A DNA stretch of 64,000 bases from Methanobacteriota archaeon (GCA_009758405.1 WSBC01000004.1:114634-178633), one strand, 5' to 3'; positions 2,589-59,708 are shown, counted from the first letter of the stretch. Numbers and translations are program-made. The notes: generated by a model from the letters alone, not told the origin.

Positions 2589-2622
2589 TTACATAAATAG
2601 TATATTAACAATATATTAAAAA

Positions 2623-4047
2623 TTATTGTACATATTTCCTGAATACCTGAGGGATCATATCTATAACTTCTGATGTAAAATATGAGTTTGATTTTTCTTC
2701 AAATGCCATCTTACCTGCACTCCCAACTATAAAACTTGCAAGGGTGGCAGAGTGGAATGTATCAATACCCCTTGAAAGTAGTCCTCCAACAGCTCCAGTC
2801 AGTATATCTCCAGTACCACCCCTAGTCATACTTGGATGATGAAAAGATTTATTTTTCTTTACAATTTCACCGTCTGAAATTATATCTACACTACCCTTCA
2901 AAAGTATAACAAGGTTGTATTTTTTTGCCATTTTGACAACATTATTTTCATCGGGATCTATTGAAAAAATCCTTTTAAATTCTCCCCTATGTGGTGTAAT
3001 TACTGCAAAACCTTTTAAATCATCGAAGAGTGTAACTGAATCCAGGGCATCAGCATCAATAACTATGGGCTTTTTTACAAGAAGTGATTCTTCAATAATT
3101 TTAGTAGAGCTCTCCTGTGAAACTTCATTTTTTCCAATTCCACAGCCCAGTGCAACTGCTGTTGCCTTATCTTCAATTATCCTTTTTAGTTCATTGTTAA
3201 ATTCAATATATCTTTCCCCACTTTTCTTCAATATTATATCATGAGTTGATGAAGATATGTAATTATGAATATACTCAGGAGAAAAAAGGAAAAGGAGATC
3301 TATTCCCATCCTCAATGCACCTTTTGACATATAAATCGGTGCCCCATAATAATCAACACTCCCTGCTATACCCACAAGAATGCCGTTTTCACCCTTATGA
3401 CTTTCATCGGGGTTAAATTTATAAGAAACAAATTCGCCAGGTCCTACCATCTCTAATAACTCACGTGGAAATCCAACATCTGCTACTATGATTTTCCCTG
3501 AATTTTTTTCATTCATCTCCCTTTTACTGAATTGCATAGTCACTGTAATGTCTGGCTTTATGGAGACATTTGTTCCTATGCCCGTAGGAACATCTACAGA
3601 AACTATTGTTTTCCTGGAAACATTTATTTTTTCAATAAGAGATCTATATGGCTCCTCTGGATCCTTTTCAATCCCTATTCCCAGCATAGCATCAACAATC
3701 ACATCATATTTTGAGGGATCAAAAAAATTTACAATGTTTACACCCTCCTCCTTTGCCTCATTGTATTTCTTAATGCAAAGCTGGCTCTTTGGCATCTTGG
3801 CCATATATACATCTACATTAACTCCATTTTTCTTCAAATTGATTGCTGTAACATATCCATCACCACCATTGTTTCCGCTACCGCAAACAACAAGAACATT
3901 CTTAGGTTTAAGTGATAAAACAACATCAGCCACTGCCTTTCCTGCATTTTCCATCAATTTTTCCATGTTTAGTCCTAAGTACTCTGCATTCTTATCCAAT
4001 ATCCTTGCATCTATCAAGCCATACATATTTATAAGAAATAATTTCAC
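2623..4047 (-). CDS. nnr: Bifunctional NAD(P)H-hydrate repair enzyme (YjeF_N epimerase + ADP-dependent dehydratase)
   Basis: 474 aa; N-domain LMENAGKAVAD...VVCGSGNNGGDG; C-domain carbohydrate-kinase-like GGTGDILTG. GTG start at 4047 overlaps upstream stop; alternative ATG at 4026. Confidence 0.85.
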   Translation of the reverse strand: MKLFLINMYGLIDARILDKNAEYLGLNMEKLMENAGKAVADVVLSLKPKNVLVVCGSGNNGGDGYVTAINLKKNGVNVDVYMAKMPKSQLCIKKYNEAKEEGVNIVNFFDPSKYDVIVDAMLGIGIEKDPEEPYRSLIEKINVSRKTIVSVDVPTGIGTNVSIKPDITVTMQFSKREMNEKNSGKIIVADVGFPRELLEMVGPGEFVSYKFNPDESHKGENGILVGIAGSVDYYGAPIYMSKGALRMGIDLLFLFSPEYIHNYISSSTHDIILKKSGERYIEFNNELKRIIEDKATAVALGCGIGKNEVSQESSTKIIEESLLVKKPIVIDADALDSVTLFDDLKGFAVITPHRGEFKRIFSIDPDENNVVKMAKKYNLVILLKGSVDIISDGEIVKKNKSFHHPSMTRGGTGDILTGAVGGLLSRGIDTFHSATLASFIVGSAGKMAFEEKSNSYFTSEVIDMIPQVFRKYVQ

Positions 4048-4667
4048 ATATTTAAAATACCTGAAACAATAAATATTATTCCAAAGACTGTTAATACTGT
4101 GAATGCTATTAAATCTAGAGCCCAGCGAGGTAATTTCATTAGATATCTATAGGATACTGCTGCAAATGCAACCAAAACCAATATGCCTGTTATAGCTCCA
4201 AATATAGCATATTGTGGAGAAAATGCACCTGAAGCGGCTATTATTAAAGTGGCCTCTGTTCCCTCAACAAGTGTAGCAAAAAACATTGGAATAATATTAA
4301 CCCTATTAAAACCAACATTAAGGCTCTTTGCCACTATCTCTTCCTCTTCCTTTTTCATTTTAAGTTCGAAGTTCCCTCCTTTAAAATAGTACCTGTAAAA
4401 TCCACGACCAAATCTATATGCAAAATATAATAAAATTATGCCCGCAACAATTGAAACATAATCTGATGGAAAAAGTGAAAAAATATTTTCAAGTATCAAA
4501 TATAATAGGATTACAACGATTATTCCTGAGACTAAACCAGCCAAAACATTTTTCTTTCCTAACTTTTTGATTGTTGTGAGTGCTATAATTGTTACTTCAC
4601 TGCCTTCAATTAAAATGGCCTTAAATGATGCGAGGAATGATAAAACCAGAAATGTTATGGAAACCAT
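4044..4667 (-). CDS. Integral membrane protein, GDT1/UPF0016-like (two E-G-[ST]-E repeats)
   Basis: 207 aa, ~6 TM; internal duplication with LIEGSEVTIIAL and LVEGTEATLIIA motifs separated by a charged loop. Confidence 0.45.
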   Translation of the reverse strand: MVSITFLVLSFLASFKAILIEGSEVTIIALTTIKKLGKKNVLAGLVSGIIVVILLYLILENIFSLFPSDYVSIVAGIILLYFAYRFGRGFYRYYFKGGNFELKMKKEEEEIVAKSLNVGFNRVNIIPMFFATLVEGTEATLIIAASGAFSPQYAIFGAITGILVLVAFAAVSYRYLMKLPRWALDLIAFTVLTVFGIIFIVSGILNM

Positions 4668-4681
4668 ATAACGGGTAATAA

Positions 4682-5341
4682 TTACAGTATAATAATCTTT
4701 GTTCTACTTTTTTTAATAAGTTCATTCAATAGATATTTTGAAAAAAGGAGTTTTTTAAATTTTTTATAAAAGTCCTTACCCTTCCTTGTATTAGGTTCAT
4801 AAAAATTGAAACCCATTAATATGATACTTGATGCATTAAAATGATCTGCAAAAAATACTGCCCTATCACCATCAGTAAAGCCACCAAAGTTATATACGTT
4901 CCATAATGGAAATGCCTGTGTAGTACCGAACCTTTTTTCAATTTTATCCACAATTTTCAATCTCTCCATATTATCCCCATGTGCGTGTACTCCAATTATT
5001 GATCCTTTCTTTGATGCCTCTATGATTATCTCTGGTTTTGAATCTAGGTCTGTAAATACAATATCTGGAACAAATCCTATTTCAAAGATCCTTGATGTGG
5101 CATCATCTGCTGTAATAATCAACTTACCCTTTAGCATTGCAGGATCTATGGAAAAATACGGTGAATCCCCTATTATAATCACATTTTTACCTTTTATTAA
5201 TTTTTCAAGTTCCTTCAACTTTATAAAATTATCCCCCAATAGTGCTGACAATATTTCTGCACTTTCCATATCCCTTCTTTCACTAAAATTAAATTCCTTA
5301 AGGATCATTTTATAATATGATTTCCATTCACTGTAATTCAT
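4682..5341 (-). CDS. mptE: MptE-like 6-hydroxymethyl-7,8-dihydropterin pyrophosphokinase family protein (DUF115)
   Basis: 219 aa; VIIIGDSPYF, ITADDATS, PDIVFTDLD, GVHAHGDN, GGFTDGDRAVFFA, ILMGFNF pattern recalled for DUF115/MptE. Confidence 0.55.
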   Translation of the reverse strand: MNYSEWKSYYKMILKEFNFSERRDMESAEILSALLGDNFIKLKELEKLIKGKNVIIIGDSPYFSIDPAMLKGKLIITADDATSRIFEIGFVPDIVFTDLDSKPEIIIEASKKGSIIGVHAHGDNMERLKIVDKIEKRFGTTQAFPLWNVYNFGGFTDGDRAVFFADHFNASSIILMGFNFYEPNTRKGKDFYKKFKKLLFSKYLLNELIKKSRTKIIIL

Positions 5342-6440
5342 CCTTCTCCCCTTCGTAAAGGAGCCTTCTCATTACTGAAGAAAATATTGAGAGTGCAAGA
5401 CCCATTCCAATGATTATTAGGCTGGGGCCATTGAACGCAGGAGAAATGAAAGAGAGTAGCACTCTAATGTACATAATTGCACCATAAACGAGGATGCCAA
5501 GACCTATTACCAGGGATATTCCTATTAAATATCCCCTAATCCTTCCTTTTTTGTGAAACAGTGTTTCAAAGGCTATGCCTGCTTCCCTTACAACAACAGC
5601 AAAAACTATCCATAATACTAGATTCTGGAAAAAGAGCGCAATTGCTGGAAATATTTCCTTTTCAATTGATGATGCATCAAATGAAGATATTATACCAAAT
5701 ATTACTATAAATATGGCTAGCAGGTCTGAAGTAATTGATATCTTTGCCTCCATAAATGCATTTTTGAACCTTCTGTATGAATTTGTAATCCTTGTCCCTA
5801 CCCTGAAGCCCCTAAGAAGAAAATAAAAACCAAGGGTCAAAAGCACAAATGCAAAACCAAATGTGCCAGGATCTGGGTAATAGGAAGAGGGGAAAAAGTA
5901 TTTCCAAAGTATAAGTCCAAAAACTGAAATACTATATGCTAGCAATATCAAAGCAATTGGAACCATAATTTTTCTTGCCACCTTTTCATCCCTGAGCGCC
6001 CTAACAAGAATATAATATGAAGATTCCAAACCTTTGCTCTGTTTTACAATTATCCTTTTTACATGTATAACTGGAACAATTGAGGTAATAATGGGAAGTA
6101 TGAACTCATCCTCTTCCCCGTCACTAACAAGTATTGCATCCCTCGGATTCAATTTTTCTTTCACACTCAAAAGCTCCTCTCTTATTTTTTCATCACTTTT
6201 TAATCCCACCGAGATATCTCCTGTAAGTGTAACTACCTCAACTTCCTTTCCCTCATTCTTTAAAGAATCGTATATTGAAACTGCACCAAATATTGCATTG
6301 GCATCGGAGTCTTCAGGATCTGCAAGTATCAATTTATTCGCAACTCTTAAATTTTCATCTCTTCCAATAATTGGACCCTTTTCACCAGTTTTTCTTCCTA
6401 CGTCGTCATCCCTATCAACACTAATTATGAGTGTAACCAT
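5328..6440 (-). CDS. Membrane protein, DUF373-like (soluble N-domain + multi-TM C-domain)
   Basis: 370 aa; N-term ISVDRDDDVGRKTG...ADPEDSDANAIFGA followed by ~6 TM segments; overlaps mptE-like start by 14 nt. Confidence 0.5.
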   Translation of the reverse strand: MVTLIISVDRDDDVGRKTGEKGPIIGRDENLRVANKLILADPEDSDANAIFGAVSIYDSLKNEGKEVEVVTLTGDISVGLKSDEKIREELLSVKEKLNPRDAILVSDGEEDEFILPIITSIVPVIHVKRIIVKQSKGLESSYYILVRALRDEKVARKIMVPIALILLAYSISVFGLILWKYFFPSSYYPDPGTFGFAFVLLTLGFYFLLRGFRVGTRITNSYRRFKNAFMEAKISITSDLLAIFIVIFGIISSFDASSIEKEIFPAIALFFQNLVLWIVFAVVVREAGIAFETLFHKKGRIRGYLIGISLVIGLGILVYGAIMYIRVLLSFISPAFNGPSLIIIGMGLALSIFSSVMRRLLYEGEKDELQ

Positions 6441-6487
6441 TCAATTAATTGGATGCATTCTTTTTATTTTAAAATTTTGTATCTTAA

Positions 6488-6715
6488 GCCTGTAGAAATC
6501 CTTTAAAAAAGATTTATTATATTTTTTCTTTATTTATTTTATGAATACTGTACACAAAAAAATTTCATCATTACTTTTATTCTAAAATTGATTTTATTTA
6601 TCGAGCTGATAGAGAAAAATGATAAGTTCAATAAAGGACAATCCTTGCATTCGATATACGTAAGGATGATATAATGAGGACCTTTGATATGAAATATCCT
6701 TGACCTTTACACATA
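6488..6715 (-). repeat. Copy 4 of the TIR-bounded intergenic repeat family (inverted orientation, internally deleted, ~230 bp)
   Basis: Reverse complement aligns to copies at 30365 and 33645: ...AGCTCGAT..ATCAATTTTAGAA..ATGAAATTTTT..ATAATAAATC.TTTTTTAAAGGATTTCTACAGGC; left part ..GGTCCTCATTATATCATCC..GGATTGTCCTTTATTGAAC; middle ~130 bp missing. Confidence 0.7.
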
Positions 6716-6819
6716 AATATAGAAGCTATAATGAAATAAAAAAATTAATTAAGATAACACCAAAAAATATAAGTATTATTATCCCATGGAAGTATTTACA
6801 AAACAAAGGAGGTCTTATT

Positions 6820-11357: not shown

Positions 11358-11909
11358 ATGTTTGAAGTAAGGTTTCATGGAAGAGGTGGTCAAGGGGCAG
11401 TTACAGCAGCAAACATCCTTGCCACGGCTGCTTTTCTCGAGGGAAATGATGTACAATCCTTCCCTTTCTTCGGTGTTGAGAGGAGGGGAGCACCAGTAGA
11501 GGCATATACAAGAATAGATAATAAAAGAATAGATATTAAGATGTATATCTACAATCCTGATGCAATTGTGGTCCTAGATACATCTTTAATGGAAAAGGTG
11601 GATGTTTTAAAGGGATTAAAAAAGGGTGGATATATAATATTAAATACACAAAAGAAACCTGAGGACTTTGATTTTAAAGATTATAAGGTGGCAGTTGTAG
11701 ATGCCACAGACGTGGCGGTTAATCTTGGGCTCGGGTCCAGATCCTCTCCAATAGTAAATACTGCAATACTTGGTGCATATGCGAAGGCAATAGGAAATGT
11801 TAAAATAGAAAGTATAGTTCAAGCAATAAAAAGTAATGCACCCACAAGACCCGATGATAATGCCAAGGCAGCTTTGGAATCTTATAATAGAACAATTTTA
11901 GGATGGTGA
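11358..11909 (+). CDS. porC: 2-oxoacid (pyruvate/2-ketoisovalerate-type):ferredoxin oxidoreductase, gamma subunit (cluster 1)
   Basis: 183 aa; [18 protein letters not shown]...FGVERRGAP; first gene of a gamma-delta-alpha-beta set. Substrate (POR vs VOR) not decidable from sequence reading. Confidence 0.8.
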
Positions 11910-11916
11910 TTAAATT

Positions 11917-12219
11917 ATGAAAATAAGTAGAGGTGCCACAATTACCGAACCAGGTAGTACTTCCTTGGAAGAGACAGGGTCATGGAGGACATTCAGGCCA
12001 GTGATAAGGTATGAGAAATGCATAAGATGCATGATATGCTGGAATTTTTGCCCTGAACCTGCAATTGAGAAAAAGGAAGGTGAAAACTACCCTGTTGCAA
12101 ACCCGAAGTTAATAAAAATGCCTGTTCCAGTGATAAACTATAATTTTTGCAAGGGTTGCGGTATATGTGTGAATGAATGTCCTACAAAGGCAATTGATTT
12201 CATAAGGGAGGAGAAGTAA
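11917..12219 (+). CDS. porD: 2-oxoacid:ferredoxin oxidoreductase, delta subunit (2x[4Fe-4S])
   Basis: 100 aa; CIRCMICWNFCPEPAI and CKGCGICVNECPTKAI. Confidence 0.8.
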   Translation: MKISRGATITEPGSTSLEETGSWRTFRPVIRYEKCIRCMICWNFCPEPAIEKKEGENYPVANPKLIKMPVPVINYNFCKGCGICVNECPTKAIDFIREEK

Positions 12220-12220
12220 A

Positions 12221-13420
12221 ATGCCAATGATGATGTTAAGGGGGAATGAAAGTACTGCCTATGCTGCAAAACTTGCAAGGGTGAAGGTAATACCTGCATA
12301 TCCTATAACACCTTCAACACTGTTTCCTGAAAAGATCTCAGAGCTCATAGCAAATGGAGAAATGGAGGCAGAGTTTCTTCCTGTAGAGAGTGAACATTCA
12401 GCATTATCTGCAGCTATTGGCGCAGCTGCAACAGGAGTCAGAGCGATGACTGCCACAGCAAGCCAAGGCCTGGCCCTGATGCATGAGGTCCTTTTCATAG
12501 CAAGCGGTATGAGGATGCCAATCGTAATGGCAATTGGCAATAGGGCATTAAGTGCTCCTGTAAACATATGGGCAGATCAGCAAGACACAATAGCGGAAAG
12601 GGATTCTGGATGGATACAATTTTATGCAGAGACTAATCAGGAGGCTTTGGACCTAACATTAATAGCATTCAAGGTGGCAGAAAATGATAAAGTTCTTCTT
12701 CCTGCAATGATGGGAATGGATGCTTTTGTACTCACACATACAATGGAACCTGTGAATGTTCCAGAACAGCAGGACGTTGATGAATTTCTAGGTGAAAAAA
12801 AGATCAACTATCCTGTACTTGATCCTGAAAAACCTGCTACCTTTGGTGCCTTCGTTTTTCCTGAGCACTATATGGATATAAGGTATTCGCAATTTATTGC
12901 CATGGAACATGCAAGGTCTGTAATAGACGATGTTTTTAATGAATTTGAGAAAAAATTTGGTAGAAGGTATTCAAAGGTTTCTGGTTTTATGGTGGATGAT
13001 GCTGAAATAGTTTTTGTAACAATGGGATCTATGACAGGAACTGCAAGAGAAACTGTGAGAAAACTAAGGGAAAAGGGTGAAAAGGTGGGTTTAGTAAAAA
13101 TCACTGTTTACAGGCCGTTTCCCAAAGAGGAGATCGTTTCATTAACAAAAAATGCAAAGGTGGTGGCTGTTGTAGATAGAAATATAAGTCCTGGATTTGC
13201 AGGAGCCATATTTACAGAAACAGTAGCAAGCTATAATAATGAAAAGAAGAGGCCAAAAATAATTGATTTTATTATGGGCCTTGGTGGAAGGGACGTAAAA
13301 ATTGAGAACTATGAGCAGGTATACAATTTAGCCAAGGCTGCTTTAAGGGGTAAATTCAAGGAGATCAATTGGATTGATGTTGATGAGGAGGCCGTTAAGG
13401 AAGTGGAGGGAACATTATGA
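12221..13420 (+). CDS. porA: 2-oxoacid:ferredoxin oxidoreductase, alpha subunit
   Basis: 399 aa; AYPITPST...ESEHSA...TATASQGLALMHE. Confidence 0.85.
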   Translation: MPMMMLRGNESTAYAAKLARVKVIPAYPITPSTLFPEKISELIANGEMEAEFLPVESEHSALSAAIGAAATGVRAMTATASQGLALMHEVLFIASGMRMPIVMAIGNRALSAPVNIWADQQDTIAERDSGWIQFYAETNQEALDLTLIAFKVAENDKVLLPAMMGMDAFVLTHTMEPVNVPEQQDVDEFLGEKKINYPVLDPEKPATFGAFVFPEHYMDIRYSQFIAMEHARSVIDDVFNEFEKKFGRRYSKVSGFMVDDAEIVFVTMGSMTGTARETVRKLREKGEKVGLVKITVYRPFPKEEIVSLTKNAKVVAVVDRNISPGFAGAIFTETVASYNNEKKRPKIIDFIMGLGGRDVKIENYEQVYNLAKAALRGKFKEINWIDVDEEAVKEVEGTL

Positions 13421-14310
13421 ATTACGAAGATATGGAATTTTTTGCGCCTGGTCACAGAGCCTGTGCAGGTTGTGCTGCACCAATAATAGTAAAGTGGGTG
13501 CTGAAAATATCAGGGCCCAAAACGATTGTTGTAAATGCCACAGGATGTTTAGAGGTTTTCTCAACCCCCTATCCCCATACATCTTGGAGGCTCCCCTGGA
13601 TTCATACTGCATTTGAAAATGCGGCTGCAACAGCAAGTGGTATAGATGCTGCCCTTAAGGCGATTGGAAAGAGGGATGATGTAAACATAGTTGTCTTTGG
13701 AGGAGATGGAGGTACATCAGACATTGGTTTTCAGAGCTTGAGCGGTATGGCAGAAAGGGGGCATAATATACTCTATATCATGTACGATAATGAGGCATAT
13801 ATGAATACAGGCATACAGAGATCTTCCTCAACTCCATTTGGGGCTTGGACCTCCACCACACAGGTAGGTCCCTCAAGACCCCTGGGCAAGGAGGAATTTA
13901 AAAAACCAATCGCAGAAATTATGGCTGCACATAAGATACCCTATGTGGCCACTGCAAATCCCGCATTCCTTCCGGATTTTAAAGCAAAGATACAAAAAGC
14001 ACTTTCAATAAAGGGTCCAAAGTTCATACACACTATTTCAAGCTGTACAACGGGATGGAGGCATGATCCAAGCAAGACTATTGAAATTATGCGTCTTGCC
14101 ACAGAAACAGGTATTTTCCCTCTATGGGAAATAGAAAATGGAGATTTCTCCAAAATAAAAATTACCTATATGCCAAAACAGAGAAAACCTGTTGAAGAAT
14201 ATTTAAAACCCCAGGGAAGGTTTAGACACCTTTTCAATGAGCCAGAAAAAATAAAGGAAATACAGAAGATGGTTGATGAATGGTGGGCTAAGTTTGAAAC
14301 AAAATCTTAA
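13417..14310 (+). CDS. porB: 2-oxoacid:ferredoxin oxidoreductase, beta subunit (TPP-binding)
   Basis: 297 aa; GHRACAGCAAP, GGDGGTSDIGFQSLSG, YDNEAYMNTGIQRSSSTP; ATGA overlap with alpha. Confidence 0.85.
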   Translation: MNYEDMEFFAPGHRACAGCAAPIIVKWVLKISGPKTIVVNATGCLEVFSTPYPHTSWRLPWIHTAFENAAATASGIDAALKAIGKRDDVNIVVFGGDGGTSDIGFQSLSGMAERGHNILYIMYDNEAYMNTGIQRSSSTPFGAWTSTTQVGPSRPLGKEEFKKPIAEIMAAHKIPYVATANPAFLPDFKAKIQKALSIKGPKFIHTISSCTTGWRHDPSKTIEIMRLATETGIFPLWEIENGDFSKIKITYMPKQRKPVEEYLKPQGRFRHLFNEPEKIKEIQKMVDEWWAKFETKS

Positions 14311-15875: not shown

Positions 15876-16226
15876 TACTTCATAAAAATCCTATCTAATG
15901 ATCCTACTTACCATTATCTGCTCTTTATCTTTTGATTGGATCATTGCTTCACTTGATTGTCCTTTAGCCCTTTATTGGGCTGGGTAATAGATTTGAGTTC
16001 AAGCATTACAAAAATATTATTTTTAAAAAATATAAAAATTTCAACTGAAATTAAATGATTATAAATGGAATTAATAAAAAGAGTACATTAATTAAAATAA
16101 AGTTTGGTGATTCCATCAGATGAATAAAATTAATTTAAAAGGGAAATAATGAAATTTCAGGGATAAAATATCCATAGAATAGGTAAAAATATAAGAAATC
16201 AATTTTTTAAAAGGATTTCTACTGGG
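15876..16226 (+). repeat. Copy 1 of the TIR-bounded intergenic repeat family (left end degenerate)
   Basis: ..ATAAAAATCCTATCTA..CTGCTC..ATCTTTTGATTGGATCATTGCTTCAC..GGTAATAGATTTGAG..AAGCATTACAAAAATATTATTT..GGAATTAATAAAAAGAGTACATTAATTAAAATAAA..AAAAGGATTTCTACTGGG. Confidence 0.75.
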
Positions 16227-16270
16227 AAAAGAAAAATTTAAAATTCCATTTTGATTAATTAATCTTAAGA

Positions 16271-18163
16271 ATGAAAAAAATTAATAAGACCTCCATATCA
16301 ATTTTCGTTTCAATTTTGCTCATAACACTACTAGGAATTTTCCTAAGAATATTACCCTCCTACAGTTATTCCATATGGGGTGTGGACTACGGTATCTATT
16401 ATGCTCTCACCACGGCCTTTGTTAATTTAGGGTTGATATTTCATCCACTTCCTTCAATATGGGGAAGTTCAGGTTATGGAAATTTTCCTATGTTTTACTG
16501 GACCATGATTTTTATACATGATATTACAAATTTAAGTGTAAATTTATTGCTTTTAAAAGTTCCGCCTATATTTGCAGGGCTTACAATTCCAATAATTTAT
16601 TTTATTGGAAAAAAACTGACAAATTCCTATGTTATAGGTATAATTTCTGCATTATTTTTAGCAATTAATCCCATGGAGGTTTTTGAAACATCAATGGTGG
16701 GATTACTTGTATTTGGGCATCTTTTCCTTCTGCTTTCAATACTCTTTTTCATATATTCTAGAGACAATAAGTATTTCTATTTGCCCTTAATTTTATCCTC
16801 ATTTTCATTGATACTTTCCCATCACTTGAGCACATATATGTATATAATTTCTATATTTGGTATAATATACCTAACAAGACTAATAAAGGGTAATTATAAT
16901 AATTATAAGTATGAACTTATATATTTTCTTGCTTTCACTGCAGCAACCTTCTCATATTGGCTCATAATGGTTCCTTCCATGTATTCATTCATAGAGCAGG
17001 GATTTTTAGGAATAATTCCCTGGTATGGAGTTATTGCAATATTTTATATTATTATTTTATTTCTGCTATATATTGTAGGATTCCTTGAAAAATATGTAAA
17101 AAAGATTTCACACATCAACATAGAGATAAAAAATTCCTATTCATTTCTTTTAACACTTTTGCTTGTATTTTCAATATTCATTTTACTCATTACAATAGGT
17201 ATTAAGGGAATTAGGATTCAACCAATAGGAATCATTTACTCCATTCCCTTCATAATTACAATAGGATTTATTGGAGTTGGAATTAATAAAATTAAAAATT
17301 ATGGTGAGGGAGAGATTATTCTATTTGGATGGATATCATTACTCTCATTTTCTTTGATTTATTCAACAATCACCTGGAACGGTGTTTTAATTCCCTATAG
17401 GTATCTTGAGTATTTATTTGAACCCTTTTCAATTTTTGGTGGAATTGGTGTTTATGAAATTTATAGATCCTTTTCTATTAAAAAAATTGGTGAAGAGAGA
17501 TATTATTATTTACCCCCGGATATAGGGGCAAAAGGTAGCTTAATAAGTGGTGAGATAAGATCTGCACCACCAATCTATTTTTCAAATCAATACAAAAAAA
17601 GGGTTTTAGTAAAGGTGGAGAAGGGGGACTTTAAGGTATTTTTTGCAATATTTCTAATAGTGATTGTAATGGTCTCTCTTGTTACTGCATATCCATTCAT
17701 AAACCAGGTAAGTGAGGTTTCACAGAATTACGTAACTCCTGTTATGATGAGTGGCATAATATGGATAGAAAAAAATGGTAATAAAAATTATTCCGTGGCC
17801 ACAGATGCTGTGGATGGATTATATCTTGAGGCGCTTGGTTTTAATTCAACATTTGAATATACCTACTACCTATGGAATTCTTCTTCCTGGAAGGATGCAA
17901 TATATGAACTCGAAGGACTGAATGGAACATATCCAAGGGTAGGTTATGTCTTAATTAATTCAAATATGTATAATAATGGTGTTTATGGTTATCAATTATC
18001 TACCCATCCCTCCTATGATCCACCTATTTATATGAGCAATTCTTCATTCAATAAATTCTTTAAAGAGCCATTCCAGGTTGCATATTATAATTCTACCGCT
18101 GATAAGTCTCAATGGGTTTATGTTTTTATTGTTAACTGGACATTTATTGAATCCAGCAGGTGA
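16271..18163 (+). CDS. Polytopic membrane protein with C-terminal extracytoplasmic domain; possible GT-C-type glycosyltransferase (AglB/PMT-like), function uncertain
   Basis: 630 aa, >=12 predicted TM, then a soluble C-domain rich in N-x-S/T sequons. No canonical WWDYG motif (nearest: VATDAVDGLYLEALG). Confidence 0.35.
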   Translation: MKKINKTSISIFVSILLITLLGIFLRILPSYSYSIWGVDYGIYYALTTAFVNLGLIFHPLPSIWGSSGYGNFPMFYWTMIFIHDITNLSVNLLLLKVPPIFAGLTIPIIYFIGKKLTNSYVIGIISALFLAINPMEVFETSMVGLLVFGHLFLLLSILFFIYSRDNKYFYLPLILSSFSLILSHHLSTYMYIISIFGIIYLTRLIKGNYNNYKYELIYFLAFTAATFSYWLIMVPSMYSFIEQGFLGIIPWYGVIAIFYIIILFLLYIVGFLEKYVKKISHINIEIKNSYSFLLTLLLVFSIFILLITIGIKGIRIQPIGIIYSIPFIITIGFIGVGINKIKNYGEGEIILFGWISLLSFSLIYSTITWNGVLIPYRYLEYLFEPFSIFGGIGVYEIYRSFSIKKIGEERYYYLPPDIGAKGSLISGEIRSAPPIYFSNQYKKRVLVKVEKGDFKVFFAIFLIVIVMVSLVTAYPFINQVSEVSQNYVTPVMMSGIIWIEKNGNKNYSVATDAVDGLYLEALGFNSTFEYTYYLWNSSSWKDAIYELEGLNGTYPRVGYVLINSNMYNNGVYGYQLSTHPSYDPPIYMSNSSFNKFFKEPFQVAYYNSTADKSQWVYVFIVNWTFIESSR

Positions 18164-30174: not shown

Positions 30175-30364
30175 ATTTTATCACCCCAACGGGCGATGGT
30201 ATATAGCATTGAAATATATTAAGTATTGCTTAACATATGCTAGCAATTAGCTTTCAAATTTATCCATTTTCCAGAGTTTGTTTAACAAATATCTTCGTTT
30301 TCTTGAGATAATTTGGAAATTTTTCAGTAAGAATTAAATAATGAATTTTAAATAAGATCCTAAA

Positions 30365-30724
30365 GGCTTTGTAGAAATTTTATCTAGGGATCGTAATTAC
30401 CATCATCTGCTCCCATCTTTTGACTGGATCATTGCTTCACCTAATGGTCCTTTTACTTATTCAAAGTATTAGGTAATAGATTTAAGTGCTAACATTAAAA
30501 AAATATTATTTAAGAAATAAATATAAGGATTTCTATCATAATTAAGGGATTGCAGATGGAATTAATAGAAAAGGTATATTAATTAAAATAAATCCTGGTA
30601 TTTGATTAGCTCGATTAATAGAATCAATTCCAGAAAGAATTTAATTATGAAATTTTTGTTATGCAACACTCACAAAATAAATAAAATAATAAATCATTCT
30701 TTTTAAAAAGGATTTCTACTAGGC
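30365..30724 (+). repeat. Copy 2 (full length, 360 bp) of the TIR-bounded intergenic repeat family
   Basis: Left end GGCTTTGTAGAAAT.., right end ..GGATTTCTACTAGGC (inverted). About 80% identical by eye to the 33645-33998 copy over the whole length; no ORF. Confidence 0.8.
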
Positions 30725-30771
30725 TTTTAATTCAAAAATATTTAATATTAGAGAATCATTTAATTGTTTGT

Positions 30772-33556: not shown

Positions 33557-33644
33557 AGTTAGGCAAAATTATCAGAGATTATTAATCTTTTTATGTATCC
33601 TGAGGAGATAATTAACAAGAAATAATTTTCATATTAGATTTTTT

Positions 33645-33998
33645 GGCTTTGTAGAAATCCTATCTATGGTTCCTACTTATCATCATCTGCTCCCCATCTT
33701 TTGGCTGGATCATCGCTTCACTTAATGGTCCTTTTATCCCTACATTGAACTAGGTAATGGATTTAAGTGCAAGCATTACAAAAATATTATTTAAGACATA
33801 AATATAATGATCTTTATTAAAATTAAAATATTATATATTAAATTAATAAAAAAGTACACTAATTAAAATAAATCTTGGTATTTGATTAGCTCGATTAATT
33901 GGATCAATTTTAGAAAGAATTTAATTATGAAATTTTTGGACACTATAGATAAATAAAAAATATAATAAATCATTTTTTAAAAAGGATTTCTACTAGGC
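33645..33998 (+). repeat. Copy 3 (full length, 354 bp) of the TIR-bounded intergenic repeat family, flanked by AGATTTTTT on both sides
   Basis: GGCTTTGTAGAAATCC...GGATTTCTACTAGGC; identical 9-mers at 33636-33644 and 33999-34007. Confidence 0.8.
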
Positions 33999-34032
33999 AG
34001 ATTTTTTAAAAAATTAAAATAATTTATAAGGC

Positions 34033-34281
34033 TTAATACATTGTCAGGTTGTATTTTTCCTTTAATTTTATGAAATCTTCCCTAGTACGAACATTAAGTA
34101 TTTCACTTATTTCCTTCATAATATTAGTTATTTCCTTATCCCAAACCTCCCTGGCAAGTACTAGCCTTTTCTCTTCATCGTCAAAATATATATCTTCACC
34201 GTATTCTTTGAAGCATCTAAGGGCCTCTGCTGCTCCCTCTTCATTCCTTTCATTTTCAAAATGTTCTATACATTCCTTCAC
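34033..34281 (-). CDS. Hypothetical protein (82 aa), last gene of the nuo transcription unit
   Basis: MKECIEHFENERNEEGAAEALRCFKEYGEDIYFDDEEKRLV...; 4-nt overlap with the upstream ORF. Confidence 0.45.
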   Translation of the reverse strand: MKECIEHFENERNEEGAAEALRCFKEYGEDIYFDDEEKRLVLAREVWDKEITNIMKEISEILNVRTREDFIKLKEKYNLTMY

Positions 34282-56754: not shown

Positions 56755-57309
56755 ATGCTTGAGATAAGATTTCACGGAAGAGGAGGACAGGGTGCAGTTA
56801 TTGCGTCGGAAATTCTCGCCACTGCAGCCTTCATGGAAGGAAAATATGTATCATCATTCCCATATTTCGGTGTTGAAAGAAGGGGAGCGCCTGTAACAGC
56901 ATTTACTAGAATCGACTCAAGACCAATCAGGGTTAAAACTCAGATATACAGCCCGGACCACGTTATAGTGCTGGATCATTCCCTTGTTAATGCTGTAAAC
57001 GTCATAGCAGGAATGAAAAGGGATGGCTTAATCCTAATAAACACGGTCAAAAATCCTGAGGATTTCCTTTTTGATATAAAAACAGTTGCAACTGTAAATG
57101 CATCAGAGATTGCACTTAAACATAGCCTTGGATCACATTCTGCGCCAATAGTAAATACCTCAATACTTGGGGCATATGCAGCTGCAAGTGGTGTTGTTTC
57201 CCTAGAGTCTGTAAAAAAGGCAATAGGTGAGGTTGTTTCAAGAATGGTTGATGAAAATATTGCCTCCGCGGAGGAGGCATACAAGAGTGTGAAGGTGATG
57301 AAAAGATGA
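56755..57309 (+). CDS. 2-oxoacid:ferredoxin oxidoreductase (POR/VOR family), gamma subunit (cluster 2)
   Basis: 184 aa; [27 protein letters not shown]; paralog of 11358..11909. Confidence 0.8.
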   Translation: MLEIRFHGRGGQGAVIASEILATAAFMEGKYVSSFPYFGVERRGAPVTAFTRIDSRPIRVKTQIYSPDHVIVLDHSLVNAVNVIAGMKRDGLILINTVKNPEDFLFDIKTVATVNASEIALKHSLGSHSAPIVNTSILGAYAAASGVVSLESVKKAIGEVVSRMVDENIASAEEAYKSVKVMKR

Positions 57310-57611
57310 ATGATTTTCCAACACCTATAGCAACAGTACCAAGTACTGGTAATAAAACTGGAGGATGGAGAACCTTCAGGCCTGTAATACTTTATGATAA
57401 ATGCATTAGGTGCATGATTTGCTGGAAATTCTGTCCAGAGCCTGCAATAAAAATTGTTAGTGCAGAAAAATATACTGCAAAGAATGCAGCAATAGGTAAG
57501 CTTGATGCACCTGAAATAGATTACGACTATTGCAAAGGATGCGGTATATGTGCAAATGAATGTCCTGTAAAGTGTATAGAAATGGTTTTTGAGGAGAAAT
57601 TGGAGGAATGA
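57306..57611 (+). CDS. 2-oxoacid:ferredoxin oxidoreductase, delta subunit (cluster 2)
   Basis: 101 aa; CIRCMICWKFCPEPAI, CKGCGICANECPVKCI. Confidence 0.8.
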   Translation: MNDFPTPIATVPSTGNKTGGWRTFRPVILYDKCIRCMICWKFCPEPAIKIVSAEKYTAKNAAIGKLDAPEIDYDYCKGCGICANECPVKCIEMVFEEKLEE

Positions 57612-57615
57612 TTTT

Positions 57616-58794
57616 ATGATAAAAATGTTAACTGGAAATTATGCATCCGCATGGGGAGCAAAGCTTGCAAGGGCAAGGGTGGTGGCTGCTTATCCTATTA
57701 CCCCACAAACAACCATTGTTGAAAAGATTGCAGAATTTATTGCAAATGGTGAATTTGATGGAAAATATATAAGGGTGGAGAGCGAGCATTCTGCAATGGC
57801 TGCATGCATTGCAGCTGAAAATACAGGTGTAAGAACATTTACAGCAACATCCTCTCACGGTCTGGCATTAATGCATGAAATGCTTCACTGGGCTGCAGGT
57901 GCCAGGTTACCAATTGTAATGAGTGTTGTAAACAGGGCCCTGGGACCTCCATGGTCAATATGGAGCGATCAGCAGGATACTATTTCACAAAGAGATACAG
58001 GCTGGTTACAAATATACACAGAAAACAATCAGGAGGTCTTGGACAGCATAATCATGGCTTATAGAATAGCTGAGAATGAAAATGTTCTCTTACCTATAAT
58101 GGTGATAGAAGACGCATTCATACTTTCCCACACTATGGAGCCTGTTGATATACCTTCACAGGAACTTGTGGATAAATTCCTACCCGAATATGATCCTAAA
58201 TACAAGCTTGATCCTTCAAGCCCAATGGGTTTCGGATCTCTGGTTATGCCAGAGGGTCCCTTTATGGAGTACAAATTCAAAGGTCATGAGGCGATGAGAA
58301 GTGCATTGAAAATAATTGATGAAGTTGATTCACTATTTAAGGAGAATTTTGGGAGATCTTATGGGGGGAGTATAGACACTTACAGGATAGATGGTGCTGA
58401 TTATATTCTTGTTATAATGGGTAGCGTGGCCTCCACTGGAAAAGAGGTTGTTGATAAACTTAGGGAAAATGGGAAGAATGTTGGCCTCGTACGTATAAGA
58501 TCCTTTAGACCATTCCCGCATGAGAGGTTAAGGGAGATACTTAAAAATAGGAGAGCTGTTGGTATATTTGATAGAAGCTATACATTCGGATATGGCGGCG
58601 CTCTTTTCTCGGAGGTGAGAAATAGTCTTTATGGTCTTTCAATCCCAGTTAAGGGGTATATAGGAGGTCTAGGGGGCAGGGACATAACTTTAGATATTTT
58701 AGAAAAAATATTTAATGACATTATAAAAATAGGCAAGGAGGGACTTGATAGGGACTATGAATGGGTAGGATTAATTGGTGATAAGAGGTGGTGA
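57616..58794 (+). CDS. 2-oxoacid:ferredoxin oxidoreductase, alpha subunit (cluster 2)
   Basis: Start MIKMLTGNYA at 57616 (the track start at 57589 overlaps delta); AYPITPQT..ESEHSA..TATSSHGLALMHE. Confidence 0.85.
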   Translation: MIKMLTGNYASAWGAKLARARVVAAYPITPQTTIVEKIAEFIANGEFDGKYIRVESEHSAMAACIAAENTGVRTFTATSSHGLALMHEMLHWAAGARLPIVMSVVNRALGPPWSIWSDQQDTISQRDTGWLQIYTENNQEVLDSIIMAYRIAENENVLLPIMVIEDAFILSHTMEPVDIPSQELVDKFLPEYDPKYKLDPSSPMGFGSLVMPEGPFMEYKFKGHEAMRSALKIIDEVDSLFKENFGRSYGGSIDTYRIDGADYILVIMGSVASTGKEVVDKLRENGKNVGLVRIRSFRPFPHERLREILKNRRAVGIFDRSYTFGYGGALFSEVRNSLYGLSIPVKGYIGGLGGRDITLDILEKIFNDIIKIGKEGLDRDYEWVGLIGDKRW

Positions 58795-59708
58795 AATTGA
58801 AAAATTTAACAATACCGGAAGAAGAATACATGCTTCCAGGTCATACTGCGTGTCTTGGTTGTGGGGCCACTTTAGCAATGAGATATGCATTGAAGGCATT
58901 GGGTAAAAATACAATAATAACCATACCTGCCTGTTGCTGGGCAGTAATTCCAGGTGTTTATCCATCAAGGGCCCTTGAGGTGCCACTCCTTTATACTGCC
59001 TTTGAGGTTACTGGGGCAGCGGTGTCTGGAATAAGAGAGGCACTTTCCGCAAAGGGTATAGAGGATGTTAATGTTGTCGGATTTGCAGGTGATGGTGGTA
59101 CTGCAGACATTGGTATACAATCTCTTAGCGGTGCTGTTGAGAGAGGGGAGGACATATTTTACATAATGTATGATAATGAAGCGTATATGAATACAGGAAT
59201 ACAGAGATCATCATCCACACCAAAGGGTGCATGGACCACCACAACACAGGTGGGAAAAATAAGGGACTGGAAAAAGGAGAAGAAAAAGAATATGGTTGAA
59301 ATAATGGCAGCACATGGTATACCTTACACAGCAACAGCCTCGATTGCATTTCCAGAGGATTTCATTAAAAAACTGGAAAAGGGTAAAAAAATAAAGGGAC
59401 CTAAGTTCTACCAAGTGTTTTCAACATGTCCAACAGGATGGCTAGTATCACCAAATAAGAGTGTAGAAGTAGCCAGACTGGCCGTTGAATCAAAGATATT
59501 TCCATTGTATGAGGTAGAAAATGGTGTTTACAACATTACATATATGCCCAAAAAGGAAGTTAAGGTAAAGGATTATTTTGCCCTTCAGGGAAGATTCAGG
59601 CATCTCACTGAAGATGAGATAAGGGAAATTCAAAATGATGTGGATGAGGCATGGAGAATTTTAGTAGAAAAGGAAAAATGGTCCAAATCTCTAATGAAGG
59701 TGCAATAA
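58788..59708 (+). CDS. 2-oxoacid:ferredoxin oxidoreductase, beta subunit (cluster 2)
   Basis: 306 aa, GTG start; GHTACLGCGAT, GDGGTADIGIQSLSG, YDNEAYMNTGIQRSSSTP. Confidence 0.85.
   Translation: MVKLKNLTIPEEEYMLPGHTACLGCGATLAMRYALKALGKNTIITIPACCWAVIPGVYPSRALEVPLLYTAFEVTGAAVSGIREALSAKGIEDVNVVGFAGDGGTADIGIQSLSGAVERGEDIFYIMYDNEAYMNTGIQRSSSTPKGAWTTTTQVGKIRDWKKEKKKNMVEIMAAHGIPYTATASIAFPEDFIKKLEKGKKIKGPKFYQVFSTCPTGWLVSPNKSVEVARLAVESKIFPLYEVENGVYNITYMPKKEVKVKDYFALQGRFRHLTEDEIREIQNDVDEAWRILVEKEKWSKSLMKVQ

What the first reader, a model, noticed from the sequence alone, without database searches (positions are those of the whole stretch)
30365..30724. Four copies of a ~350-bp intergenic repeat with terminal inverted repeats (MITE-like family)
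Highly similar non-coding elements occur at four sites: 15876-16226, 30365-30724 and 33645-33998 (same orientation), and 6488-6715 (inverted). Copies 2 and 3 align end to end at roughly 80% identity by eye. Shared blocks include CCATCATCTGCTCCC.ATCTTTTGRCTGGATCATYGCTTCACYTAATGGTCCTTTTA, TAGGTAATRGATTTAAGTGC, TAATTAAAATAAATCYTGGTATTTGATTAGCTCGATTAAT, GAAAGAATTTAATTATGAAATTTTTG and AATAAATCATT.TTTTAAAAAGGATTTCTACTAGGC. The two ends are inverted copies of each other: left GGCTTTGTAGAAATCC, and GCCTAGTAGAAATCC as the reverse complement of the right end. None of the copies has an ORF. A conserved internal hairpin is present in copy 2 (GGATCATT-9 nt-AATGGTCC, 30426-30450), reduced to 7 bp in copy 3. 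Four copies in 64 kb would imply a high genome-wide copy number. I do not recognise this as a described element.
Basis: seen in the sequence. Interest (0 to 1): 0.65.

Follow-up and report, generated by a model that had tools for sequence, protein, structure and literature searches.

The report
Archaeal MITE family from IS5-type transposon
The four repeats are real copies of a small non-coding mobile element (a MITE) in a heat-vent archaeon, moved by the transposase of a related 1-kb insertion sequence. It is an ordinary kind of element, but it lands just upstream of gene promoters in one orientation and carries a dead fragment of an RNA-guided nuclease gene (tnpB).

Summary
The window, a contig of a Thermoplasmata/Aciduliprofundum-like MAG, carries three full copies (352-360 bp, 74-84% identical) and one 124-bp right-end fragment. 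The ends are ~16-bp inverted repeats, and no copy has an ORF above 36 aa.

The MITE reading is supported.
- Related genomes have empty sites at copies 2 and 3.
- Copy 3 and several metagenome copies carry perfect 8-10-bp target-site duplications.
- A 99.5%-identical metagenome contig has an extra copy at window 6761/6762, where the window is empty.
- A 1011-bp insertion sequence with the same ends, a 10-bp duplication and an IS5-family DDE transposase was found. Its last ~160 bp form the MITE's right third.
- Ends and duplication length resemble IS903.

Two things were not anticipated.
- The left ~115 bp is an antisense relic of the 3' end of a tnpB gene. The parent lineage was therefore a DDE-type transposon carrying TnpB, which is a rare but published kind.
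- Right ends lie, after the duplication, directly against an AAAAAATTTAAATAT (BRE/TATA-like) motif, about 45 nt before a start codon.

No RNA family or conserved RNA fold was found. Verdict: a new member of a known kind, of moderate interest.

The parts
30365..30724 (+). MITE copy 2 (360 bp, full length), the element of the finding. It lies between glutamate dehydrogenase (- strand, start 30174) and scpB (+ strand, start 30772). No recognisable target-site duplication.
   Evidence: nhmmer E=5e-106. Absent from the same spacer in relatives L049 (230-bp spacer) and L051 (135 bp), against 597 bp here.
30365..30380 (+). Left terminal inverted repeat of copy 2 (GGCTTTGTAGAAATTT; family consensus GGCTTTGTAGAAATCC).
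   Evidence: Of the first 12 bases, 11 equal the IS903B inverted repeat GGCTTTGTTGAATAAATC quoted in PMC10569121.
30381..30477 (-). Left module: antisense relic of the last ~35 codons of a tnpB gene (frame ...KGPLGEAMIQSKDG..., frameshifted in this copy).
   Evidence: The same frame is continuous with a Zn-ribbon/RuvC-III motif in the long variants and in protein P0099.
30566..30709 (+). Right module: relic of the 3' end of the IS5-family transposase gene of the parent insertion sequence.
   Evidence: nhmmer places model positions 202-359 on the IS copies. tblastn of the IS transposase hits 30605-30726.
30710..30724 (+). Right terminal inverted repeat of copy 2 (GGATTTCTACTAGGC).
30734..30748 (+). 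Host BRE/TATA-like promoter motif (AAAAATATTTAATAT) directly beyond the right end, 24 nt before the scpB start codon. It is not part of the element.
   Evidence: The same motif is present in the MITE-free relative L049. Positional profile of 30 right flanks.
33645..33998 (+). MITE copy 3 (354 bp, full length), between a 97-aa gene and an 82-aa gene, both on the - strand.
   Evidence: nhmmer E=6e-105. Relatives have a 33-34-bp spacer at this place, against 476 bp here.
33636..33644 (+). Left copy of the 9-bp target-site duplication of copy 3 (AGATTTTTT).
33999..34007 (+). Right copy of the 9-bp target-site duplication of copy 3 (AGATTTTTT), followed at 34008-34022 by AAAAAATTAAAATAA.
15876..16227 (+). 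MITE copy 1 (352 bp). It is the oldest-looking copy: both inverted repeats are degraded (TACTTCATAAAAATCC / GGATTTCTACTGGGA) and no duplication is visible. It lies between a KaiC/GvpD-like ATPase gene (- strand) and a 630-aa ORF (+ strand, start 16271).
   Evidence: nhmmer E=7e-93; flanks.
6488..6611 (-). Copy 4: a 124-bp right-end fragment with its right inverted repeat intact, 47 nt upstream of the DUF373 gene start (6440). A BRE/TATA-like motif lies at 6464-6478.
   Evidence: nhmmer model positions 241-357, E=2e-12. Present in all near-identical contigs L068, L155 and L173-175.
6761..6762 (+). Polymorphic insertion site. It is empty in the window, but a long-variant MITE sits here in the 99.5%-identical metagenome contig L068. 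The host sequence that follows is AAAAAATATAAGTAT, 58 nt before the Alba start codon.

Best explanation
The repeats are copies of a miniature inverted-repeat transposable element (MITE) of a Thermoplasmata (Aciduliprofundum/DHVE2-like) archaeon.

How it moves. The element has no gene of its own. It is moved in trans by the DDE transposase of a ~1.0-kb IS5-family insertion sequence with IS903-like ends and an IS903-like duplication length. That transposase recognises the shared ~16-bp terminal inverted repeats (GGCTTTGTAGAAATCC). It cuts the element out and pastes it into a staggered cut, which leaves a 9-10-bp target-site duplication.

Anatomy.
- Left inverted repeat.
- About 115 bp that are an antisense relic of the 3' end of a tnpB gene.
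- About 70-85 bp of unknown origin. In the ~490-bp variants this is replaced by a further ~200 bp of tnpB relic.
- About 145 bp that are the 3' end of the IS transposase gene.
- Right inverted repeat.

Origin. The simplest origin is internal deletion of a larger element with the same ends that carried both the DDE transposase and a divergently oriented tnpB.

Target choice. Insertion is not random. The right end is placed so that the duplication directly abuts an AAAAAATTTAAATAT motif. In these genomes that motif is usually the BRE/TATA box of a gene starting ~45 nt further on. Copies therefore accumulate just upstream of promoters without destroying them.

Shown: repeat family, inverted repeats, duplications, empty sites, polymorphism, autonomous IS with the same ends, the tnpB and transposase relics, and the flank motif.

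Inferred: trans-mobilisation by that particular transposase, the double-gene parent, and that target choice is made by the transposase rather than by selection after insertion.
For: Family and ends.

Source organism and synteny.

Empty sites for copies 2 and 3 in relatives whose ScpB is 82% and 69% identical.

Target-site duplications:
- window copy 3: AGATTTTTT, 9/9
- L055: TGTTACTTCA, 10/10
- L101: 8/9
- L136/L056: AGATGTAA, 8/8
- L049: 8/9
- IS in L080: TGAAATAATA, 10/10
- IS in L168: TAAAAAAGGA, 10/10

Recent activity: contig L068 is 99.5% identical to window 1-6761 and then runs into a MITE. The window and contig L155 (99.7% identical) are empty there.

Many copies: about 45 profile hits in 108 metagenome loci, many of them at contig ends.

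Autonomous partner:
- L080:455-1465 is 1011 bp, has the same inverted repeats and carries a DDE_Tnp_1 transposase with the Y-2-R-3-E-6-K motif, frameshifted in this copy.
- NCBIfam IS5_2 scores 136 bits against a cut-off of 140.
- The nearest annotated relatives are archaeal IS5-family transposases.
- Further IS copies, 93-97% identical at protein level, sit at contig ends.
- The transposase frame reads through the right inverted repeat (...FLKRISTRL), and MITE model positions 202-359 align to it.

IS903 likeness: IS903B has the inverted repeat GGCTTTGTTGAATAAATC and a 9-bp duplication (PMC10569121).

tnpB relic:
- Unedited frames of the long variants hit PF07282 at E~1e-5.
- P0099 is a continuous ORF running from the Zn ribbon and DRDLNAAINI motif to ...SKDGEQMMVSRIPE*, followed at once by the inverted repeat.
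- Full-length TnpBs with the same tail exist (P0101, P0104). One sits between IS903-like inverted repeats.

Flank motif:
- T at +1 in 28/30 right flanks.
- A at +10 in 26/30.
- T at +17 in 26/30.
- 20/30 right flanks match at least 11/15 of the motif, against 0.7% of random window positions and 1/18 left flanks.
- ORFs start 27-58 nt beyond about 16 of the 30 right ends.
Against: - No autonomous IS lies in the window or in 7 kb beyond its left end. The rest of the source genome could not be searched, so co-residence of MITE and IS is shown only at the level of shared metagenomes (Ga0078972, Ga0080006).
- The one complete IS found is frameshifted, and the second is decayed.
- Copies 1 and 2 show no target-site duplication. 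For copy 2 the joined flanks are about as long as the empty site in L049, so a duplication may never have been there or was lost.
- The MITE right module is only ~68-70% identical to the L080 IS (85% in L079), so that IS copy is a relative of the parent and not the parent itself.
- No intact element carrying both transposase and tnpB was found.
- The flank motif was derived from the same data it was scored on. Selection against disruptive insertions could contribute to it.
Confidence: 0.88

Rival explanations
1. The repeats are genes for, or parts of, a structured non-coding RNA or a cis-regulatory RNA that is conserved upstream of several genes.
For: All copies are intergenic, lie close to start codons and have no ORF. 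Copy 2 has an 8-bp hairpin. The + strand folds slightly better than shuffled sequence (z=-1.8).
Against: - No Rfam family reaches its threshold, and the weak hits have E>1.
- RNAalifold gives a positive (penalising) covariation term on every alignment. The left module on the - strand has -0.5 kcal/mol.
- Most of the + strand energy comes from pairing of the two inverted repeats.
- Empty sites, duplications and a within-population polymorphism show mobile DNA, not fixed genes.
Confidence: 0.03
2. The copies are fixed upstream regulatory modules, such as binding-site clusters for a transcription factor, that spread by duplication or gene conversion rather than by transposition.
For: Right ends sit at a nearly constant distance (43-47 nt) from start codons of c1, c2 and c4. 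c1 and c2 lack duplications. c2 and c3 share some similarity in ~35 nt of left flank.
Against: - The downstream genes are unrelated (ScpB, DUF373, a 630-aa ORF, Alba).
- Relatives keep the same promoters without the element.
- Perfect 9-10-bp duplications flank many copies, and a transposase-bearing element has the same ends.
- Contigs break inside the element, as expected for dispersed high-copy repeats.
Confidence: 0.04
3. The MITE copies are still working parts of a TnpB system. Each copy expresses, from its tnpB-relic end, an omega-RNA-like transcript whose guide is the adjacent flank. That transcript is used in trans by a TnpB encoded elsewhere.
For: - The left ~115 bp, which is the tnpB 3' end where omega-RNA scaffolds are normally encoded, is the part shared by otherwise divergent MITE subfamilies, including the one in relative L049.
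- The geometry is that of IS605. In an empty site the T/A-rich motif would lie 5' of the sequence matching the putative guide (inference).
- DDE-associated TnpBs whose 3' end lies within 250 bp of the transposon end are published (PMC10691335).
Against: - No conserved secondary structure or covariation in that region.
- The tnpB frames are broken in many copies, and no intact close TnpB was found in ~1 Mb of related loci. Only three short relic proteins came out of the 5.8-billion-protein word search.
- Conservation can be explained by recent amplification.
Confidence: 0.05

Closest known systems
MITEs of prokaryotic IS5-family insertion sequences (non-autonomous deletion derivatives; archaeal examples recalled from memory include the Sulfolobus SM1-SM4 and haloarchaeal MITEs)
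   Same: Small (350-490 bp) and non-coding. Terminal inverted repeats identical to those of a transposase-bearing IS. Target-site duplication of the same length as the IS. Many dispersed intergenic copies, with empty sites in relatives.
   Different: The internal sequence is a chimera of two gene relics (transposase 3' end and antisense tnpB 3' end). Insertion is strongly phased and oriented with respect to a BRE/TATA-like motif. No description for Aciduliprofundum/DHVE2-like Thermoplasmata was found in the searchable literature.
IS903 (IS5 family, IS903 group)
   Same: About 1 kb with a single DDE transposase. The inverted repeat starts GGCTTTGT.GAA, matching 11 of the first 12 bases. IS903B makes a 9-bp target duplication (PMC10569121).
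   Different: - The duplication here is 9-10 bp.
- tblastn of the transposase against plasmids returned only 167 records, led by haloarchaea and Roseomonas. The top 25 listed hits are archaeal or Roseomonas IS5-family transposases (ISHvo2- and ISH28-like, 19-36% identity), and no IS903 annotation appears among them.
- The NCBIfam IS5_2 score is just under its cut-off.
- The host is an archaeon.
DDE-transposase-associated TnpB elements (branches DDE-1 to DDE-6 of Altae-Tran et al. 2023, PNAS, PMC10691335; partners named ISL2, IS630 and IS1031 in review PMC13565253)
   Same: tnpB lies inside an element bounded by inverted terminal repeats, with its 3' end at the transposon end. Solo tnpB elements with the same kind of ends also exist (L171, L169), as that paper reports.
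   Different: Here the ends and duplication are IS903-like, a partner not named in the sources read. The tnpB survives only as relics in this lineage. No intact element with both genes was recovered, so the association is inferred from the relics and from the shared ends.
IS200/IS605-family elements and their palindrome-associated derivatives (PATEs)
   Same: They contain tnpB sequence. The relation of a T/A-rich target motif on one side to the tnpB 3' end on the other is the same.
   Different: IS200/IS605 elements have no terminal inverted repeats and make no target duplication (PMC13565253). This family has both, and a DDE transposase partner.

Membership tests
MITE (non-autonomous DNA transposon) | Short (under ~600 bp) and without coding capacity | tested here: met
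   352-360 bp; the longest internal ORF is 36 aa.
MITE (non-autonomous DNA transposon) | Terminal inverted repeats | tested here: met
   GGCTTTGTAGAAATCC / GCCTAGTAGAAATCC. The 10-mer core is found only at element ends, 5 times against 0.13 expected.
MITE (non-autonomous DNA transposon) | Target-site duplication flanking the copies | tested here: met
   Perfect 9-bp duplication at window copy 3 and 8-10 bp at L055, L101, L136 and L049. Not visible at window copies 1 and 2.
MITE (non-autonomous DNA transposon) | Multiple dispersed copies, with presence/absence differences between related genomes | tested here: met
   - Four sites in the window.
- About 45 profile hits in metagenome loci.
- Empty sites in L049 and L051.
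- Polymorphism at 6761/6762.
A genome-wide count could not be made.
MITE (non-autonomous DNA transposon) | An autonomous element with the same ends that encodes the transposase | tested here: met
   L080:455-1465 and L168:2865-3861. Found in the same metagenomes as MITE copies, not in the window itself.
IS5 family (parent insertion sequence) | DDE transposase of the DDE_Tnp_1 type with the Y-2-R-3-E-6-K signature | tested here: met
   PF01609, E=5e-10. YKQRSKIETVHYVIK is read directly in the L080 ORF.
IS5 family (parent insertion sequence) | Score above the curated family model cut-off | tested here: inconclusive
It is the best of all the IS-family models that matched.
IS903 group of the IS5 family | About 1 kb, ends starting GGC, 9-bp target duplication | tested here: met
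   1011 and 997 bp, ends GGC/GCC, duplications of 9-10 bp. The IS903B repeat and duplication are quoted in PMC10569121. The group definition itself is from my memory of ISfinder.
IS903 group of the IS5 family | Transposase detectably closest to IS903-group transposases | tested here: not met
   tblastn against 72,556 plasmids returned 167 records, led by haloarchaea and Roseomonas. The top 25 listed hits carry no IS903 annotation. The subgroup is therefore left open.
TnpB (RNA-guided nuclease gene), as a relic | Zn-ribbon/TNB domain and RuvC-III motif (DRDxNAAxNI) | tested here: met
   - Unedited relic frames score 25.2-25.8 bits on PF07282 against a cut-off of 26.3, E~1e-5.
- A hand-spliced composite frame scores 42 bits.
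- It matches NCBIfam guided_TnpB positions 343-385 of 389.
- P0098-P0100 carry PF07282.
The window copies keep only the tail downstream of this motif.
TnpB (RNA-guided nuclease gene), as a relic | Functional omega-RNA with conserved structure at the gene's 3' end | tested here: inconclusive
   No supported consensus structure. The copies are few and closely related, and no expression data are available.
Any Rfam RNA family | Covariance-model score at or above the gathering threshold | tested here: not met
   Only tRNA-Phe in the whole window passes. The best sub-threshold hits on the element have E of 1.8 or more.
IS200/IS605 family or PATE | No inverted repeats and no target duplication; subterminal hairpins; Y1 TnpA partner | tested here: not met
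   Inverted repeats and duplications are present, and the partner is a DDE transposase. Family definition as in PMC13565253.

The most novel reading that the evidence does not exclude
The family descends from an archaeal IS5/IS903-type DDE transposon that carried a TnpB RNA-guided nuclease, and it still keeps that transposon's geometry. This would be a prokaryotic counterpart of Fanzor-bearing DDE transposons.

The transposase places the element in one orientation next to a T/A-rich motif. The tnpB end at the far side reads out into the flank. In an empty site the motif would therefore sit immediately 5' of the guide-matching sequence and could act as the TAM. TnpB could then cut empty alleles and drive homing.

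A side effect would be a transposon family that homes to the upstream edge of archaeal promoters. MITE copies might still supply omega-RNA-like guides.
Probability: 0.15. Interest if true: 0.7.

Novelty: new member of a known kind. Interest (0 to 1): 0.4.

Why it matters
In kind this is ordinary: a MITE and its IS5-family parent. Three points give it some value.

1. It documents an active mobile-element family in an uncultured Thermoplasmata lineage. Copies break assemblies and differ between near-identical genomes, which matters for binning and for strain tracking.

2. The insertion sites are phased to within a base or two against a BRE/TATA-like motif and share one orientation. If the transposase makes that choice, this is a simple system for studying promoter-proximal targeting in archaea, and a possible source of promoter rewiring.

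3. The tnpB relic inside DDE-type inverted repeats adds an IS903-like partner to the short list of DDE-transposon/TnpB associations. The geometry makes the idea that target preference and TAM co-evolve directly testable.

Tried and rejected
- **Genome scan.** The genome-contig scan with the right-end 20-mer gave 47 single hits in unrelated bacteria, about the chance expectation, and none matched the profile.
- **Viral scan.** The viral-contig scan gave 6 chance hits.
- **CRISPR-leader idea.** No tandem arrays lie near any copy.
- **RNA readings.** Rfam at gathering and at E up to 10, RNAalifold on three alignments, and single-sequence folds on both strands were all negative. Weak C/D-box snoRNA hits on the - strand have E above 1 and lack a D box.
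- **Duplications at copies 1 and 2.** None found.
- **Origin of the left module.** It does not match the 5' part of the IS beyond the inverted repeat.
- **Intact tnpB or a two-gene parent.** Searched by tblastn in ~1 Mb of fetched loci; only relics were found.
- **Extending the source genome.** One look-up failed. The other added 7.4 kb with no further copy.
- **Literature.** Nothing was found on Aciduliprofundum MITEs or on promoter-targeting archaeal insertion sequences. The archaeal IS review PMC1847376 is not held, so the IS5 subgroup definitions rest on my memory of ISfinder.

Full report
**1. The observation**

The window is AT-rich (35.5% GC). It carries archaeal genes: Alba, ScpB, PolD DP2, proteasome, aCPSF1, and a Nuo/Mrp-type complex.

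Repeat finding and a profile built from the copies confirm three full-length copies on the + strand.

| Copy | Coordinates | Length |
|---|---|---|
| c1 | 15876-16227 | 352 bp |
| c2 | 30365-30724 | 360 bp |
| c3 | 33645-33998 | 354 bp |
| c4 | 6488-6611 (inverted) | 124 bp |

- Pairwise identities are c1-c2 74%, c1-c3 76% and c2-c3 84%.
- c4 covers only the right end.
- The ends are inverted repeats, GGCTTTGTAGAAATCC and GCCTAGTAGAAATCC. The 10-base core occurs five times in 64 kb, only at element ends, against 0.13 expected.
- The elements are 24-26% GC and hold no ORF above 36 aa.

**2. Source and relatives**

ScpB, encoded next to c2, is found on contig WSBE01000033.1 of MAG GCA_009758305.1. 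Its homologues are named Thermoplasmata archaeon or Aciduliprofundum sp..

Syntenic loci from relatives were fetched: L049/L050 (ScpB 82% identical) and L051-L053 (69% identical).

| Spacer | Window | L049 | L051 |
|---|---|---|---|
| GDH-scpB (site of c2) | 597 bp | 230 bp | 135 bp |
| 97-aa gene to 82-aa gene (site of c3) | 476 bp | 34 bp | 33 bp |

- Alignments show that the elements are insertions in the window lineage.
- The scpB promoter-like sequence CAAAAATATTTAATA is conserved in L049, right beside the insertion point. It is host sequence, not part of the element.

**3. More copies, duplications, recent activity**

- The genome-contig scan gave only chance hits.
- The metagenome scan with the right-end 20-mer gave 108 loci. 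About 45 profile hits fall in them.
- These include full elements of 353-364 bp (L055, L056=L136, L101, L145), one of 389 bp (L079), and ~490-bp variants (L108, L145).
- Many contigs start or stop inside the element, as expected for a dispersed repeat.

Target-site duplications are clear:

| Copy | Duplication | Match |
|---|---|---|
| window c3 | AGATTTTTT | 9/9 |
| L055 | TGTTACTTCA | 10/10 |
| L101 | - | 8/9 |
| L136 | AGATGTAA | 8/8 |
| L049 | - | 8/9 |

c1 and c2 show none.

Contig L068 is 99.5% identical to window 1-6761 and then continues into a MITE left end. The window and L155 (99.7% identical) are uninterrupted there. This is an insertion polymorphism within one population.

**4. 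The autonomous partner**

L080:455-1465 is a 1011-bp element with these features:
- ends GCCTTGTAGAAAACC and GCCTAGTAGAAATCC;
- a 10-bp duplication, TGAAATAATA;
- a DDE_Tnp_1 transposase in two frames (189 + 138 aa) with the Y-2-R-3-E-6-K signature.

A neighbouring copy (L063) shows that the split is a 1-nt frameshift.

Family assignment of the repaired protein:
- Its best match is NCBIfam transpos_IS5_2, at 136 bits against a cut-off of 140.
- By tblastn it matches archaeal IS5-family transposases, ISHvo2- and ISH28-like, at 19-36% identity.

Other copies:
- A second, decayed copy lies at L168:2865-3861 (76% identical, duplication TAAAAAAGGA).
- Further copies, 93-97% identical at protein level, lie at contig ends.

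Relation to the MITE:
- The transposase frame runs through the right inverted repeat (...NYFLKRISTRL).
- MITE model positions ~202-359 are this 3' end, ~68-70% identical, or 85% in L079.

Likeness to IS903:
- Length, GGC ends and a 9-10-bp duplication resemble IS903.
- The published IS903B repeat is GGCTTTGTTGAATAAATC, with a 9-bp duplication. It shares 11 of its first 12 bases with this family (PMC10569121).
- The listed plasmid hits include nothing annotated as IS903, so the subgroup stays open.

**5. The left module is a tnpB relic**

- Beyond the inverted repeat, the left part of the MITE does not match the IS.
- On the reverse strand most copies share a frame...KGPSSEAMIQSKDGEQMMVSRIxR*, that ends at the repeat.
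- In the ~490-bp variants the frame continues upstream to ...TSRTCSVCG...HCDKCGLTIDRDINASY.
- Unedited frames hit PF07282 (Cas12f1-like/TnpB TNB domain) at E~1e-5.
- A hand-spliced composite frame matches positions 343-385 of the 389-position NCBIfam TnpB model.
- A word-based protein search found three short proteins with this sequence.
- One of them, P0099, is a continuous ORF. On L169 its reading frame reaches back at least 170 codons to the contig start, with one frameshift. Its stop codon is followed at once by AGGATTTCTACAAGCCC, the outer end of the inverted repeat. tnpB therefore lies inside the repeat-bounded element.
- An exhaustive profile search found full-length TnpBs with the same tail: P0101 (377 aa, 68% identical) and P0104 (390 aa).
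- P0101 sits in a complete 1.96-Mb genome between IS903-like inverted repeats (GGGCTTGTCAATTTTTCGTTGAT / GGGACTTTGTCAAATAATCGTTGAT). There is no DDE gene inside, and a later IS110 insertion interrupts it.
- In L172 the repeat overlaps the tnpB stop codon.

This matches what Altae-Tran et al. 2023 describe: DDE-associated TnpB branches with inverted terminal repeats, a TnpB 3' end within 250 bp of the transposon end, and solo TnpBs with the same ends (PMC10691335; review PMC13565253).

The long MITE variant is what a single internal deletion of an element with divergent tnpB and DDE transposase genes would leave. No such parent was recovered.

**6. Not an RNA**

- Rfam finds nothing.
- Consensus folding of full copies, of the left module, and of the long tnpB-relic region gives weak energies with penalising covariation terms.
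- Single-sequence z-scores are -1.8 and -0.3.

**7. Where it lands**

Thirty non-redundant right-end flanks were aligned by the element end.

| Position beyond the right end | Base | Count out of 30 |
|---|---|---|
| +1 | T | 28 |
| +10 to +15 | A | 26, 20, 25, 24, 17, 19 |
| +16 to +18 | T | 23, 26, 20 |
| +21 | A | 25 |
| +22 | T | 22 |

- The pattern is T-N8/9-AAAAAATTTAAATAT, a BRE/TATA-like motif that starts just after the duplication.
- Twenty of 30 right flanks match at least 11 of 15 motif positions at that offset.
- Only 0.7% of random window positions do, and 1 of 18 left flanks. That one is the complete IS in L080, which is evidently inserted the other way round.
- An ORF of at least 70 aa starts 27-58 nt beyond about 16 of the 30 right ends. 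For c1, c2 and c4 the distances are 43, 47 and 47 nt. This puts the TATA-like centre ~26-29 nt before the start codon, as for leaderless archaeal transcripts.
- The polymorphic insertion at 6761/6762 obeys the same rule: it is followed by AAAAAATATAAGTAT, upstream of Alba.
- c3 shows the motif without a downstream gene. This argues for sequence preference rather than a need for a working promoter.
- The motif was derived from these same flanks, so the match counts are partly circular. The per-position counts (binomial p of 1e-9 to 1e-11) and the left/right contrast are not.

**8. Verdict**

The element is a MITE of an IS5-family, IS903-like insertion sequence, and it was recently active in this population.

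It is a new member of a known kind. Two features deserve a note: the antisense tnpB relic, which ties the lineage to the rare DDE-associated TnpB transposons, and the phased, oriented insertion at the upstream edge of promoter-like motifs.

Still unproven:
- that the IS lies in the same genome as the window;
- that a double-gene parent existed;
- that target choice is made by the transposase.

Noticed in passing
window 6761-6762; L068:8590-8797: In a 99.5%-identical metagenome contig, a long-variant MITE with the tnpB relic is inserted ~58 nt upstream of the Alba gene. The window and another near-identical contig are empty at that site. This is an insertion polymorphism within one population.
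   Followed up: yes
right-end flanks: window 30725-30748, 33999-34022, 16228-16246, 6464-6487; 30 loci in all: The sequence beyond the right end follows T-N8/9-AAAAAATTTAAATAT, a BRE/TATA-like motif directly after the duplication. A start codon usually lies ~45 nt from the element end. Left ends lack the motif.
   Followed up: yes
L171:3926-6679 (complete genome CP060531.1): A full-length TnpB (377 aa) lies between IS903-like ~25-bp inverted repeats with no DDE transposase inside. Its 3' end is interrupted by an IS110-family insertion (5192-6409). This looks like a solo-tnpB element with DDE-type ends.
   Followed up: partly
L049:8190-8477 (also L050): The Aciduliprofundum-like relative has its own related MITE between the proteasome and GDH genes, where the window has an 83-bp spacer. 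It is 288 bp and consists almost entirely of tnpB relic between diverged inverted repeats, with an 8/9 duplication.
   Followed up: partly
window 33594-33635 and 34008-34035: Copy 3 sits inside ~80 bp of spacer that relatives lack altogether. About 35 nt of the left flank of copy 2 (30330-30364) resembles the left flank of copy 3. Copy 2 also has no duplication, and its joined flanks are about as long as the empty site in L049. The origin of this is unexplained.
   Followed up: partly
window 11358-14310 and 56755-59708: There are two paralogous four-gene 2-oxoacid:ferredoxin oxidoreductase clusters (gamma, delta-ferredoxin, alpha, beta). They show up as 71-73% identical direct repeats 45.4 kb apart (families D1 and D8).
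   Followed up: no
window 16271-18163: The 630-aa ORF directly downstream of copy 1 has no Pfam match.
   Followed up: no
L079:2656-3044: This MITE copy has an extra partial left inverted repeat (GGCTTTGTAGATTTAC) 31 bp outside the normal left-module start. It is probably a small internal duplication or insertion.
   Followed up: no
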